Assembly: GCA_942493265.1 (NCBI GenBank)
Contig: OW818688.1
Span: 1,218,994 to 1,282,993, forward strand
Direction: 5' to 3'
Length of the DNA stretch: 64,000 bases
DNA from: an uncultured Bacteroidota bacterium
GTDB lineage: Bacteria > Bacteroidota > Bacteroidia > Bacteroidales > UBA12481
Notes under the pieces: generated by a model
Told to the model about the DNA's origin: nothing
Databases searched by the model: none
What the model saw: the letters and a program-made list of their open reading frames with translations, nothing else
In this document: positions 55,741-57,499 of the stretch, one piece after another
Layout: every line of letters begins with the position of its first letter
Position numbering within the stretch: the stretch's first letter is position 1
Made by a program: the position numbers and the translations under genes

Positions 55741-55840
55741 GTCCACATTACCCCTCGGAGAGGTGGCATCCTGCTCTGACTGACCCTCGGAGAGGTGTCA
55801 TCTGCCACCAAGCTACCCTCGGAGAAGTGTCATCCCGACG
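55741..55840. repeat. Left arm: three 19-bp cores CCCTCGGAGA(R)GTG(K)CATC at 32-bp period with 13-bp spacers
   Basis: Cores at 55752-55770, 55784-55802 and 55816-55834. Spacers are CTGCTCTGACTGA and TGCCACCAAGCTA. The outer end is GTCCACA. Confidence 0.9.
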
Positions 55841-55909
55841 TATTCTAAGATAAAAACAAGTTTTTTCTTAGGTATTTTTAAAAAACATTGCCACAATTTC
55901 CTTCTACCT

Positions 55910-56056
55910 CATCAAAGGTCTTAACCGCCAAGATAAGGTATGATCAGAACCTGTCAAGGGCAAGTAAATGCCTCTTCCATCGCTCAAGGCATTATCACAG
56001 GCACCCTTGACAGAACCTGAGTCATACCTTGAAAAAGCGTTTAAGATCCTTTGATG
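55910..56056 (-). ncRNA. Candidate structured RNA / nested stem-loop immediately 3' of the transposase gene
   Basis: Nested complementary pairs: 55910-55924/56041-56056, 55935-55943/56022-56030, 55951-55960/56004-56013 and 55967-55973/55987-55993, with internal loops between them. The 60-aa ORF here is discounted. Confidence 0.35.
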
Positions 56057-56075
56057 CGAAGCCCTGTTGATTGAA

Positions 56076-57071
56076 CTATGCTGCATATCCCATGGTTTCT
56101 ACGTAGGGGGTTCCGCGCTCAACAACAGCAAAGATTCTGGCGACAAGTTTGTTGCGGATGATATTCTGTGTTGACATTTTGTTTTTTCCTTCCGCGATTC
56201 TTTTCTGGTAATACAATCTAATCTCAGTATTATGCTGGATGGCACTGCCGGTAATGTTACTCAAGAGGGATTTCATTTTTTTGTTAGCGAGATGGCTCAC
56301 TTTGGTTTTACCTCTGATACTGGTCCCCGATTGGTATGGGAATGGAGCAATGCCTGCATAACAAGCAAACTTGCGCGCATTTGGGAACCTGTGAAAAGCA
56401 TGAGTTACAGCAATCATATAGAGAGCAGTTTGAGTACCAACACCCTTGATGCTGACGATCAAATCAAATTGCGTTTTCAGCTTCGGATGATTCTGTACCA
56501 CCTTTAAAAGTTCTTTGTCCAGCAGATCGATCTGTTGATCAAGACTCTTGATCATGGTTTCCTGGACGTTGAAGAAAAGCGGATCCTCTTTTTTTCCAAT
56601 TGCCCGTTTAGCTTCACCAATAGATGCCTTATATCCGGCCCTTTGACTCACGAGTCTGTCTCGCAAGGAGAGCAATCGCTTCATCTGTTGGATCTCTTTT
56701 TCGGGCATTTGCGTTGGTATGATCAGGAGCTTACGCAAGCTGGCATACTCGGCAATCTTCCCGGCATCCACCTTGTCACTTTTGCCACGGGAAATGCCCA
56801 GGGATCGCTTCAACTCCAGTCCAGGGAGCATCACAAAAGAGTACCCTTTTTCCTGAAGATAAACAGCCAACTGATGCGAGTAATAGCCGGTATGCTCAAA
56901 AGCGAAGAGCGCCTCAGAGAGTTTTACTTTGTAATCCTTTGCCAGTGAGTGAAAGAGCTGCTTAATACCCTTAGCATCATTCTCTACCTGGAAGACCTTG
57001 CCCTCTGGTAAAACTTCTACATCGAGAGTTAATTTACTTACATCGAAGCCAATAATTTTTGAATAATCCAT
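56076..57071 (-). CDS. IS110-family (DEDD) transposase/recombinase
   Basis: 331 aa. The N-terminal IIGFDVSKLTLDVEV is the first Asp of the RuvC-like DEDD domain. The C-terminal IKGVGTQTALYMIAVTHAFHRFPNARKFACYAGIAPFPYQSGTSIRGKTKVSHLANKKMKSLL is the IS116/IS110/IS902 Tnp domain. Confidence 0.9.
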   Translation of the reverse strand: MDYSKIIGFDVSKLTLDVEVLPEGKVFQVENDAKGIKQLFHSLAKDYKVKLSEALFAFEHTGYYSHQLAVYLQEKGYSFVMLPGLELKRSLGISRGKSDKVDAGKIAEYASLRKLLIIPTQMPEKEIQQMKRLLSLRDRLVSQRAGYKASIGEAKRAIGKKEDPLFFNVQETMIKSLDQQIDLLDKELLKVVQNHPKLKTQFDLIVSIKGVGTQTALYMIAVTHAFHRFPNARKFACYAGIAPFPYQSGTSIRGKTKVSHLANKKMKSLLSNITGSAIQHNTEIRLYYQKRIAEGKNKMSTQNIIRNKLVARIFAVVERGTPYVETMGYAA

Positions 57072-57164
57072 AACTTTGCAATTAAGCGTTAATAAAAAGC
57101 TGCTGTAACTAAAACCTTTAATAGGACTCGTCTCCTAAAATTCTAATTGGTTCACAGTAGCAAG

Positions 57165-57396
57165 AAAGGGAATGAGGACTAATACGTCGGAAAGGCCTAA
57201 AGCCTAGAAAGTCGGAAAGTTCACCTCATTCCTTTTCAATTTACATCTATTTTAAATACAAATGCTAATCTAAAGGAAAGTCGGGACCGCCTTCCTTACC
57301 CGGCATGCCTTTGAGAGCTACTTCCAAGTCAACTCCGTGCAGCGTCGGGAGAGCACCCAATGGCCCCTCGTTAGAGCGAGGCGGTCCCGACTTTCG
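57165..57396 (-). ncRNA. Candidate bridge-RNA-like guide region in the 5' non-coding end of the IS
   Basis: The hairpin at 57165-57235 has an outer stem GGAATGAGG/CCTCATTCC. Its internal-loop strands contain AATACGTCGG (57181-57190) and GAAAGTCGG (57207-57215). These are exact reverse complements of the element termini at 55835-55844 and 57387-57395. There is also a perfect 16-bp stem, 57276-57291 with 57380-57395. Confidence 0.45.
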
Positions 57397-57499
57397 CCGG
57401 GATGACACTTCTCCGAGGGTCAGTCAGAGCAGGATGCCACTTCTCCGAGGGTAGCTTGGTGGCAGATGCCACCTCTCCGAGGGGCGGTCAGTTGTGGAC
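57395..57499. repeat. Right arm: the same three cores in inverted orientation at 32-bp period, with spacer order swapped
   Basis: Cores GATG(M)CAC(Y)TCTCCGAGGG at 57401-57419, 57433-57451 and 57465-57483. Spacers TCAGTCAGAGCAG and TAGCTTGGTGGCA are reverse complements of the left-arm spacers. The outer end is TGTGGAC. Confidence 0.9.

What the first reader, a model, noticed from the sequence alone, without database searches (positions are those of the whole stretch)
55741..57499. An IS110 element is inserted at the exact centre of a ~200-bp palindromic array of three 32-bp-phased repeats per arm, with spacer order swapped between arms
Seen directly: each flank carries three copies of a 19-bp core (CCCTCGGAGARGTGKCATC) at a strict 32-bp period, separated by 13-bp spacers.
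- Left cores: 55752, 55784, 55816. Right cores, in inverted orientation: 57401, 57433, 57465.
- The IS-proximal cores are identical on the two arms, and so are the distal cores. Both arms end outward in GTCCACA.
- The two spacers (CTGCTCTGACTGA and TGCCACCAAGCTA) occur in opposite order on the two arms, so this is not a simple hairpin duplication.
- Deleting 55838-57394 while keeping one CG recreates a perfect palindrome centre, GTCATCC-CG-CCGGGATGAC.
Established knowledge: IS110-family elements lack long terminal IRs and often target REP-like palindromes.
Inference: the array is a pre-existing structured repeat element (REP/BIME-like) used as the insertion target. The alternative is that the arrays are multi-site transposase-binding ends, as in Tn7 or Mu, which would be unprecedented for IS110.
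The array abuts the leader motif of the protease/sulfatase/GH29 operon (4 nt away) and the stop of the 1496-aa gene (7 nt away).
Basis: partly seen in the sequence, partly recalled or inferred. Interest (0 to 1): 0.6.

Follow-up and report, generated by a model that had tools for sequence, protein, structure and literature searches.

The report
Bridge-RNA IS110 inside a REP hairpin

Summary
The six 19-bp cores at a strict 32-bp period, the swapped spacers and the IS110 transposase are all real. Three independent lines place the IS at 55842-57275 (about 1.43 kb), not 55838-57394:
- a 98%-identical copy in another genomic context (L111);
- family-wide ends (CTTTAGATT... / ...TTAGAATAC);
- complementarity of the guide loops of the predicted bridge RNA to the flanks.

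Window 57276-57394 is host repeat DNA. Removing the IS rebuilds the hairpin GTGTCATC-CCGAC-GAAA-GTCGG-GACC, one base different from the intact inverted copy at 57385-57402. The IS therefore sits in the tetraloop of one unit of an inverted REP-like pair, not at the palindrome centre.

The hairpin belongs to a multi-copy intergenic family: TGTC tag, 7-bp stem with compensatory changes, 4-nt loop. It is usually found as inverted pairs just after gene ends and resembles the published CGTC/TGTC-tagged REPs. Related IS copies sit in the same loop of at least six such hairpins that lack core arrays, so the arrays are not element ends.

The three-core, 32-bp arrays are a lineage-specific elaboration of the REP 5' flank. 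They recur in L111 with different spacers, and their function is unknown. Overall this is a new member of a known kind (IS110 into REP).

The parts
55741..55839 (+). Left repeat unit ('long X', interrupted). It runs GTCCACA, then cores R1 55752-55770, R2 55784-55802 and R3 55816-55834 separated by 13-nt spacers, then the 5' half of the REP hairpin stem (..TGTC ATCCCGAC, ending at 55839). In IS sense orientation, 55839-55827 is the right target (RT) GTCGGGATGACAC.
   Evidence: an nhmmer hit to the X profile at 55816-55842; RT matches the reverse complement of the right target guide.
55840..55841 (-). Core dinucleotide at the right-end junction (AC in IS sense).
   Evidence: Family-wide right end ...TTAGAAT-AC followed by variable flanks.
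55842..57275 (-). IS110-family insertion sequence, 1434 bp, corrected limits. In sense orientation the left end starts CTTTAGATTAGC at 57275 and the right end finishes ...CTTAGAAT at 55842.
   Evidence: Boundaries of multi-copy relatives; 97.9% identity to L111 in a different gene context, with identity collapsing outside; guide-to-flank rule.
56076..57071 (-). Recombinase gene, 331 aa: DEDD_Tnp_IS110 (PF01548) plus Transposase_20 (PF02371).
57169..57232 (-). [quoted passage not shown] The outer stem is GGAATGAGG/CCTCATTCC. The left target guide CCGACTTTC lies at 57215-57207. The right target guide plus handshake CCGACGTATT lies at 57190-57181.
   Evidence: Conserved stems with hypervariable loop strands across 13 relatives; the fold shows a 12x12 internal loop; guides match the flanks.
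57099..57161 (-). Predicted donor-binding loop. The left donor guide TTAGAAT (57146-57140) equals the right-end terminus. The right donor guide TAAAGGT (57120-57114) is complementary to AC plus CTTTA, that is the core plus the left-end start.
   Evidence: assigned by analogy with the IS621 rules in PMC11208158.
55910..56056 (-). Conserved ~145-nt hairpin inside the right end, present in this IS sub-clade only.
   Evidence: 52 predicted pairs, 3 of them with compensatory changes and several G-U pairs in the sense strand; absent from compact relatives whose right end is 46 nt.
57276..57277 (-). Core dinucleotide at the left-end junction (TC in IS sense).
   Evidence: Last two bases of the 9-nt match to the left target guide.
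57278..57291 (-). Left target (LT), the other half of the interrupted REP hairpin (sense GGCGGTCCCGACTT). This is host DNA, not IS.
   Evidence: Identical to the left target guide; shared with the L111 flank only over about 20 nt.
57292..57384 (.). Asymmetric middle of the inverted pair. It includes the tail hairpin CCTCGCTCTAACGAGG of the right unit at 57366-57381.
   Evidence: Homologous to IS-free X copies L108/L101/L100; not shared with L111.
57385..57499 (-). Right repeat unit ('long X', intact). It comprises REP hairpin TCCCGGC-GAAA-GTCGGGA at 57385-57402, cores at 57401-57419, 57433-57451 and 57465-57483, and terminal TGTGGAC at 57493-57499.
   Evidence: nhmmer E=3.7e-13 over 57419-57378.

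Best explanation
A 1434-bp IS110-group insertion sequence (55842-57275, minus strand) is inserted in the apical tetraloop of one REP-like hairpin. That hairpin is one unit of an inverted REP pair lying between the 1496-aa gene and the downstream operon.

How it works:
- The element encodes a two-loop bridge RNA in its 204-nt left end.
- In the first loop, the left target guide (CCGACTTTC) has the same sequence as the 9 nt immediately left of the element (CCGACTT plus core TC). By the IS621 rule it therefore pairs with the bottom strand there.
- The right target guide is complementary to AAT-AC-GTCGG, that is the last 3 nt of the right end, the core, and the first 5 nt of the right flank.
- The second loop matches the element's own termini (TTAGAAT / AC-CTTTA).
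- Recombination at the 2-nt core (xC) splits the hairpin CCGAC-GAAA-GTCGG.

The flanks:
- The 19-bp cores are the conserved 5' flank (CCCTCGGAGAAG plus TGTC tag plus ATC) of this REP family.
- In this lineage that flank is triplicated at 32-bp spacing.
- The two arms are two such units in opposite orientation, out of register by one 32-bp module. This is why the spacers look swapped.

Shown: the boundaries, guide complementarity, independence of the repeat from the IS, and stem covariation.
Inferred: circle formation, bridge RNA expression from a junction promoter, a slippage origin for the arrays, and a terminator/stabiliser role for the pair.
For: Boundaries:
- Multi-copy relatives delimit elements that start (C)CTTTAGATT and end TTAGAATAC, with about 203 nt of left end.
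- A copy with the same guides (L111) lies between different genes. It is 97.9% identical over window 57297-55752, and identity is lost beyond that.

Guides:
- The alignment of 13 left ends shows conserved stems with hypervariable loop strands.
- The left target guide equals the 9 nt left of the element exactly (9/9) in the window, L111, L002/L023 and L005. It matches 8/9 in L001, L015, L024, L112/L113 and the L124/L125 type, and 8-9/9 across the P0008-type copies.
- The reverse complement of the right target guide equals AATAC plus 5 nt of right flank in the window, L111, L002/L023, L112, the P0008-type copies and the L124/L125 type.
- The pairing scheme follows IS621 (PMC11208158).

Empty site:
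- The reconstruction gives GTGTCATCCCGACGAAAGTCGGGACCGCC, against the intact inverted copy GTGTCATCCCGGCGAAAGTCGGGACCGCC.
- The 323-nt empty site folds at -218 kcal/mol, z = -16.4.

The repeat is independent of the IS:
- The core is found in 35 metagenome contigs with no IS110 transposase.
- nhmmer finds 65 hits to the X profile, 61 of them in the metagenome loci.
- In the seven densest loci every copy but one (L081, inside a 130-aa mechanical ORF) lies between ORFs. There are 8 X+/X- pairs, five of them starting within about 50 nt of an ORF end.
- In the hairpin, 99.1% of cells pair and 14 cells carry a change on both sides; 0 of 500 shuffles reach this.
- P0008-type IS copies (82% aa identity) sit in the loop of at least 6 different hairpins, GGTCCCCGCTTTC|...|GCGGGGATGACAG, with no three-core arrays.

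Precedent: IS110 elements are known to target REPs (PMC11208160).
Against: - No true empty-site allele of this locus could be retrieved. The neighbouring proteins are not on record and the source genome is not in the scanned collections.
- The closest genome-collection relative, L001, matches its guide on the left flank (8/9) but not on the right flank.
- The core-binding positions of the left donor guide (TT) do not match the donor core (AC), and the handshake positions of the donor-binding loop do not match.
- Bridge RNA expression and activity are untested.
- Only two copies of the repeat are visible in the 64-kb window, so its abundance in the host genome is unknown.
Confidence: 0.85

Rival explanations
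1. One reading: the IS spans 55838-57394 with a CG core and sits at the exact centre of a ~200-bp palindrome, GTCATCC-CG-CCGGGATGAC.
For: Deleting that interval does give a palindromic junction, and a 202-nt hairpin of -146.5 kcal/mol. CG is present at both proposed junctions.
Against: - Window 57420-57350 aligns with IS-free repeat copies across the proposed boundary.
- The near-identical IS in L111 does not contain 57298-57394.
- Relatives have about 203-nt left ends starting CTTTAGATT.
- I saw no guide segment matching a CG-centred target when reading the left end; this was not searched formally.
- The short palindrome extension is explained by the REP stem CCGGC being partly self-complementary.
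Confidence: 0.03
2. The three-core arrays are multi-site recombinase-binding ends that belong to the mobile element, Tn7/Mu-like.
For: L111, the one other copy of the same IS recovered, is also flanked on its right-end side by three cores at 32-bp spacing.
Against: - In L111 the spacers differ (about 83% identity in the array against 97.9% for the whole 1546-nt alignment, which is mostly IS), and there is no array on the left-end side.
- None of the 75 genome loci with related IS carries the core.
- IS copies at 82-86% aa identity sit in hairpins without arrays.
- Cores occur widely without any IS110.
- IS110 recognises its DNA through bridge RNA guides and has no terminal inverted repeats.
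Confidence: 0.02
3. The 'long X' unit (GTCCACA, three cores, hairpin, tail) is itself a small non-autonomous mobile element, MITE- or REPIN-like. It would be mobilised by a transposase encoded elsewhere, and the IS110 merely landed in it. The arrays would then be part of that element's structure rather than passive slippage products.
For: - Three independent long-X units have exactly three cores at exactly 32 bp, with conserved cores but diverged spacers.
- X units occur in many intergenic sites, in both orientations and as inverted pairs, like REPINs.
- REPs are thought to be mobilised by RAYTs (PMC3733652).
Against: - No target-site duplication is evident at the GTCCACA ends.
- GTCCACA is absent from the L111 unit.
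- No transposase candidate was examined.
- CGTC-type REPs are reported to lack a dedicated transposase.
- Only three long-X units are known.
Confidence: 0.2

Closest known systems
IS621 and other IS110-group bridge-RNA recombinase elements (Durrant 2024, PMC11208160; Hiraizumi 2024, PMC11208158)
   Same: - DEDD/RuvC-like plus Tnp (PF01548 + PF02371) recombinase.
- No terminal inverted repeats; a 2-nt core shared by donor and target.
- A left-end-encoded RNA with a target-binding loop followed by a donor-binding loop.
- The 5' guide is identical to the left target plus core, and the 3' guide is complementary to the core plus right target, with handshake bases.
- The natural target is a REP.
   Different: - The core is xC (TC in the target, AC in the donor) rather than CT.
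- The handshake-like match is 3 nt.
- The insertion point is the apical tetraloop of the REP hairpin.
- There is no obvious 5' stem-loop.
- The right end carries an extra conserved ~145-nt hairpin, making the right end (234 nt) longer than the left end (204 nt).
- The host is Bacteroidota (T9SS sorting domain in the neighbouring gene; relatives all in Bacteroidota MAGs).
ISPpu10 / ISPpu9 of Pseudomonas putida, REP-targeting IS110 elements (bioRxiv 10.64898/2026.03.19.712850)
   Same: An IS110 element that inserts into a conserved intergenic hairpin-forming repeat. Its bridge RNA is described as lacking the 5' stem-loop. The target hairpin is proposed as a structural determinant.
   Different: Different host phylum and repeat family. 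A structural requirement for the hairpin was not tested here; only sequence complementarity is shown.
CGTC/TGTC-tagged REP superfamily and REP dimers (Di Nocera et al. 2013, PMC3733652); BIME/REPIN pairs
   Same: - An unpaired 4-nt tag (TGTC, invariant in 46/46 copies).
- A short GC-rich stem beginning AT, a 4-nt loop and a short C-rich tail.
- An intergenic position, mostly just downstream of ORFs; pairs in opposite orientation able to form a long hairpin; G-U/G-T pairs in stems.
- Reported in Bacteroidetes.
   Different: - The first stem pair is mostly A.C, giving 7 rather than 8-9 Watson-Crick pairs.
- A further conserved 12 nt (CCCTCGGAGAAG) lies 5' of the tag.
- That flank is tandemly repeated three times at 32 bp in this lineage, or replaced by heptamer tandem repeats in others. 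This is not described for that superfamily in the passages I read.
Neisseria dRS3 repeats / NIME mosaics as targets of IS110/Piv-type recombinases (recalled from memory; only the equation dRS3 = CGTC-1 was seen)
   Same: Short conserved repeats of about 20 bp alternate with variable segments in intergenic mosaics, and the repeat is the integration site for elements using IS110/Piv-family recombinases.
   Different: The variable segments there are 50-150 bp, not 13 bp. This is a different phylum. The resemblance was not tested here.

Membership tests
IS110 family, IS110 group (bridge recombinase elements) | Recombinase with an N-terminal DEDD/RuvC-like domain (PF01548) and a C-terminal Tnp domain (PF02371) | tested here: met
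   E = 2.2e-18 and 3.5e-21, both above the curated cut-offs.
IS110 family, IS110 group (bridge recombinase elements) | No terminal inverted repeats or target duplication; only a short core shared at both junctions | tested here: met
   The junctions are ...CCGACTT-TC|CTTTAGATT and TTAGAAT-AC|GTCGG. Only the second core base is shared, and the pattern is the same in relatives.
IS110 family, IS110 group (bridge recombinase elements) | Left-end-encoded RNA with two internal loops whose strands match the target and donor by the IS621 scheme | tested here: met
   Left target guide 9/9 and right target guide plus handshake 10/10 against the flanks; left donor guide 7/7 and right donor guide 7/7 against the element ends. 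Stems are conserved and target guides hypervariable in 13 relatives. This is sequence-level only; the RNA itself was not observed.
IS110 family, IS110 group (bridge recombinase elements) | [quoted passage not shown] | not testable with these tools
   Only an inference: joining the ends gives CTTG-N20-TAGATTAG (TAGATTTG in most relatives), resembling the Bacteroidetes -33/-7 consensus recalled from memory.
REP, CGTC/TGTC-tagged superfamily (PMC3733652) | Unpaired terminal tetranucleotide CGTC (variants TGTC, CCTC) | tested here: met
   TGTC is invariant in 46/46 distinct copies.
REP, CGTC/TGTC-tagged superfamily (PMC3733652) | 8-9-bp stem starting with complementary A-T residues; 4-5-nt loop; short tail | tested here: inconclusive
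   There are 7 Watson-Crick/wobble pairs, 99.1% paired with compensatory changes, and a 4-nt loop. The outermost A faces C in most copies and T in a few. The tail is CC(G/C) rather than CCA.
REP, CGTC/TGTC-tagged superfamily (PMC3733652) | Many intergenic copies, mostly downstream of ORFs, often as pairs in opposite orientation | tested here: met
   61 copies in 35 metagenome loci. All but one of the copies in the seven densest loci lie between ORFs, and there are 8 X+/X- pairs. Copy number in the source genome was not measurable; the window holds 2 units.
REP, CGTC/TGTC-tagged superfamily (PMC3733652) | Relation to a RAYT or other dedicated transposase | not tested
   No search for Y1 transposases was made in the window or the loci.
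Multi-site transposon ends (Tn7/Mu type) | The repeated binding sites accompany every copy of the element at fixed positions inside both ends | tested here: not met
   Arrays are absent from 75 related loci and from the P0008/P0005/P0121-type copies. They are present on one side only in L111, with diverged spacers.
CRISPR array | Direct repeats of 23 nt or more separated by unique spacers of similar or greater length, in one orientation | tested here: not met
   The repeats are 19 nt and the spacers 13 nt. Each spacer is present twice, and the two arms are inverted.

The most novel reading that the evidence does not exclude
The strictly 32-bp-phased triplets may be a functional module of a previously undescribed REP subtype rather than slippage debris. 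Their 19-bp cores are conserved while the 13-nt spacers diverge between loci, and exactly three cores occur in all three units seen. One possibility is a phased binding platform for a REP-associated protein, with three helical turns per unit. The bridge RNA element would then exploit the adjacent hairpin as a safe harbour.
Probability: 0.12. Interest if true: 0.5.

Novelty: new member of a known kind. Interest (0 to 1): 0.3.

Why it matters
It corrects a misannotation that would have suggested an unprecedented IS110 architecture. It also supplies a clean natural example, from Bacteroidota, of bridge-RNA targeting. Guide loops, donor ends and target hairpin can all be read directly from the sequence, and sister elements have retargeted guides that track sequence variants of the same REP hairpin. 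This clade may be useful to people mining bridge recombinases, because it has an xC core, a loop-of-hairpin target and an extra right-end hairpin. The REP-like family with tandemised 5' flanks is a small addition to the catalogue of bacterial interspersed repeats. None of this changes the current understanding of IS110 or REP biology.

Tried and rejected
- Rfam scan of 55000-58000 at E<=1: no family.
- Two-core pattern in genome contigs: no hit, so the source genome is not in that collection.
- Exact-protein look-ups of the transposase, P0001, P0122 and the two neighbouring proteins: not on record. No empty-site allele could be fetched.
- Plasmid collection search with the element: no match.
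It made both strands of the 57169-57232 loop pair with the same DNA strand, which conflicts with the IS621 scheme. I abandoned it once the multi-copy relatives gave the real ends.
- CRISPR-like mini-array, hammerhead-like motif, and GTCCACA as a terminal inverted repeat with target duplication: considered by eye and dropped. Repeat and spacer sizes do not fit, no core motif is present, and there is no duplication.
- Literature search for the hairpin sequence itself: only chance hits in unrelated papers.
- A simple model of alternating A/B spacers explains the swapped order. It fits the outer flanks only loosely (ACTGACCG against spacer A; TTGTCCACATTAC against spacer B) and remains an inference.
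Full report
**Observation**

The repeats are real.
- The degenerate 19-mer CCCTCGGAGARGTGKCATC matches exactly six times in the 64-kb window, and only at this site. Three matches are on the plus strand (55752, 55784, 55816) and three on the minus strand (57401, 57433, 57465). A shuffle expects 0.03 matches.
- The period is 32 bp.
- The two 13-nt spacers are each present once per arm in opposite order. This produces two alternative shifted-register inverted repeats, of 60 nt at 93% and 51 nt at 96%.
- Between the arms lies a 331-aa ORF (57071..56076, minus strand) with both IS110 Pfam domains.

Scanning public metagenome contigs for the core gave 35 loci, and none encodes an IS110 transposase. 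In most of them the core is single and runs straight into a hairpin...GTGTCATC CCCGC GAAG GCGGG GACC.... The window has the same continuation, CCCTCGGAGAAGTGTCATC CCGGC GAAA GTCGG GACCGCC TCGCTCTAACGAGGGG. It aligns with these IS-free copies from 57420 down to about 57350. That alignment crosses the supposed IS end at 57394. So 57394-57350 belongs to the repeat and not to the element.

**True limits of the IS**

- Relatives present in several copies per genome delimit compact elements that begin (C)CTTTAGATT about 203 nt upstream of the ATG and end ...CTTAGAATAC. Examples are Saccharicrinis L011-13 (2798-4039) and Bacteroidales MFD03804 L002/15/23.
- The window contains CTTTAGATTAGC at 57275-57264 and CTTAGAATAC at 55849-55840.
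- A transposase in the same 90% cluster (P0123) led to contig L111, where the element lies between a RACo-type gene and a phosphoribosyltransferase-type gene.
- Window and L111 are 97.9% identical over 57297-55752. Beyond about 20 nt on the left-end side the sequences are unrelated.
- The element is therefore 55842-57275 (1434 bp), flanked by the dinucleotides TC (57277-57276) and AC (55841-55840).

**Bridge RNA**

- Aligning 13 left ends shows two stem-framed internal loops. The strands of the first loop are hypervariable and those of the second are conserved. The window's first module folds as a stem with a 12x12 internal loop and an apical hairpin.
- In IS621 the 5' guide pairs with the bottom strand of the left target, so it reads like the top strand. 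The 3' guide pairs with the top strand of core plus right target, followed by handshake bases that pair with the donor's left side (PMC11208158).
- Here the 5' strand CCGACTTTC (57215-57207) is identical to the 9 nt abutting the left end (57284-57276).
- The 3' strand CCGACGTATT (57190-57181) is the reverse complement of AAT-AC-GTCGG, which spans the right-end junction.
- The same rule holds in relatives that carry different guides and different flanks:
  - exact 9/9 on the left in L111, L002/L023 and L005;
  - 8/9 in L001, L015, L024, L112/L113 and the P0005 type (L124/L125);
  - 8-9/9 across the P0008-type copies.
- L001 matches on the left only.
- The second loop carries TTAGAAT (equal to the right-end terminus) and TAAAGGT (complementary to AC plus CTTTA, core plus left-end start). 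I read it as the donor-binding loop.
- Joining the ends gives CTTG-N20-TAGATT(A/T)G. From memory this resembles the Bacteroidetes -33/-7 promoter, so a junction promoter as in IS621 is plausible but untested.

**What the target is**

Removing the IS and keeping one core gives GTGTCATC-CCGAC-GAAA-GTCGG-GACCGCC. The intact inverted copy at 57385-57402 reads CCGGC-GAAA-GTCGG, a single base different. The IS therefore split the tetraloop of one hairpin. The full empty site (55741-55839 + GA + 57278-57499, 323 nt) is an inverted pair of two units. Each unit has three cores plus hairpin plus ACCGCC, and an ~86-nt asymmetric middle separates them. As RNA it folds at -218 kcal/mol, z = -16.4. The intact right-arm hairpin matches the left target guide 9/9 and differs from the right-target specification at one base (GCCGG against GTCGG). 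That makes it a near-cognate target that is unoccupied.

**The repeat family ('X')**

- A profile of core plus hairpin finds 61 copies in the 35 metagenome loci and only the finding's own copies in the window.
- In the seven densest loci every copy but one lies between ORFs. The exception, in L081, overlaps a 130-aa mechanical ORF. There are eight X+/X- pairs with tags outward and tails inward, the same arrangement as in the window. Five of these pairs begin within about 50 nt of an ORF end.
- Across 46 distinct copies TGTC is invariant. The 7-bp stem is paired in 99.1% of cells. Fourteen cells changed on both sides (CG to GC, GC to AU, CG to UA), and 0 of 500 shuffles reach that.
- These features match the published description of CGTC/TGTC-tagged REPs. 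That description includes an unpaired tag, a stem starting AT, a 4-5-nt loop, a short tail, dimers in opposite orientation, a location downstream of ORFs, and presence in Bacteroidetes (PMC3733652).
- The stem here is one pair short of the published 8-9 bp, so I call it REP-like and probably of that superfamily.

**Do the arrays travel with the IS?**

They do not.
- None of 75 genome loci with related IS has the core.
- IS copies at 82% aa identity (P0008 type) sit in the TTTC loop of at least six different hairpins, GGTCCCCGC-TTTC-GCGGGGATGACAG. Their outer flanks are unrelated or are heptamer tandem repeats.
- The P0005- and P0121-type copies behave likewise, with guides retargeted to their own stem variants.
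- In L111 the right-target side again carries three cores at 32 bp, but with other spacers (TACCACCGAGTCT, CGCCACTAATTTG). Identity across the array is about 83%, against 97.9% for the whole alignment. This is the pattern expected for two diverged copies of a host repeat hit by one young IS.

**The 32-bp arrays and the swapped spacers**

- The core consists of 12 conserved nucleotides, then the TGTC tag, then the first three stem bases.
- R1 and R2 are therefore tandem duplicates of the REP 5' flank that lack the hairpin.
- In other lineages the same position is occupied by heptamer or octamer tandem repeats (GCAGTAG, GTGAAGC, GGTCACC, CCGATAC, GTTTCAGRG).
- Spacers A and B are 13/13 identical between the arms but permuted. 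The arms thus behave as pieces of an A/B-alternating array out of phase by one unit.
- I infer a one-unit gain or loss, or shifted-register conversion between arms. This is not demonstrated.
- Any function of the phased cores is unknown.

**Comparison and verdict**

IS110 elements inserting into REPs is established knowledge (PMC11208160; ISPpu10 preprint). This is a new member of that kind, in Bacteroidota. It differs in having an xC core, a loop-of-hairpin target and an additional conserved right-end hairpin. It sits in a REP-like family whose 5' flank is tandemised.

Noticed in passing
window 55910-56056 (minus strand); also L001 4015-4165, L111 2963-3115, L112, L114, L117, L119, L124: The right end of this IS sub-clade holds a conserved ~145-nt hairpin: 52 predicted pairs, 3 with compensatory changes, and several G-U pairs only in the sense strand. 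Compact relatives (right end 46 nt) lack it. Gene callers place a 59-60-aa ORF there. There is no Rfam match, and its function is unknown.
   Followed up: partly
L102 ~7421-7490, L082/L104, L091, L085, L086, L093, L099; L001 2550-2640; right-end flanks of L115, L117, L118: The tag side of the REP-like hairpin is very often preceded by short tandem repeats of 7-8 nt whose unit differs from locus to locus (GCAGTAG, GTGACAA/GTGAAGC, GGTCACC, CCGATAC, GCTTCAC, GTTTCAGRG). The 32-bp core triplets of the window occupy the same position. The link between the hairpin and adjacent tandem repeats is unexplained.
   Followed up: partly
L116 1-245: The left-end flank starts with CAAATCTAAAGG|AAAGCGGGGACC, the reverse complement of another left-end junction. 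Both hairpins of one inverted REP pair appear to be occupied by IS copies in opposite orientation, left end facing left end, about 100 nt apart.
   Followed up: partly
L001 2783-2795 and 4238-4260: The closest genome-collection relative (87% aa) has a left flank matching its left target guide 8/9 (GGTCCCCGCGTTC). Its right flank (CTTGCCGG) does not match its right target guide (expected GCGAG/GCGGGG). This suggests a later deletion or rearrangement at the right end, or a MAG assembly join.
   Followed up: no
L077, L080, L081, L085 downstream of the core (for example L080 5238-5130): After the hairpin, a module of about 35 nt (GCGGGGACCCCGTCACGCTGGTAGGATTTC plus about 5 nt) is itself tandemly repeated 2-3 times. 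Tandem modularity is therefore a general trait of this repeat family and is not confined to the cores.
   Followed up: no
window 57507-61997 (minus strand): The 1496-aa ORF combines SASA (sialate O-acetylesterase-like), GH2 sugar-binding, Amidohydro_2, AMP_N and Peptidase_M24 domains in one polypeptide. This is an unusual fusion, upstream of the F5/8-type-C/T9SS protein, sulfatase and GH29 fucosidase genes.
   Followed up: no
L114 227-1591, L115 248-1612: In two contigs the P0008-type IS110 lies about 340 nt downstream of a DDE_Tnp_1 transposase gene, with REP-like hairpins in between. The REP cluster may act as a landing pad for more than one IS family.
   Followed up: no
window 57385-57402: The intact right-arm hairpin matches the IS's left target guide 9/9 and misses the right-target specification by one base (GCCGG against GTCGG). 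It is a near-cognate second target that is unoccupied in this genome.
   Followed up: partly
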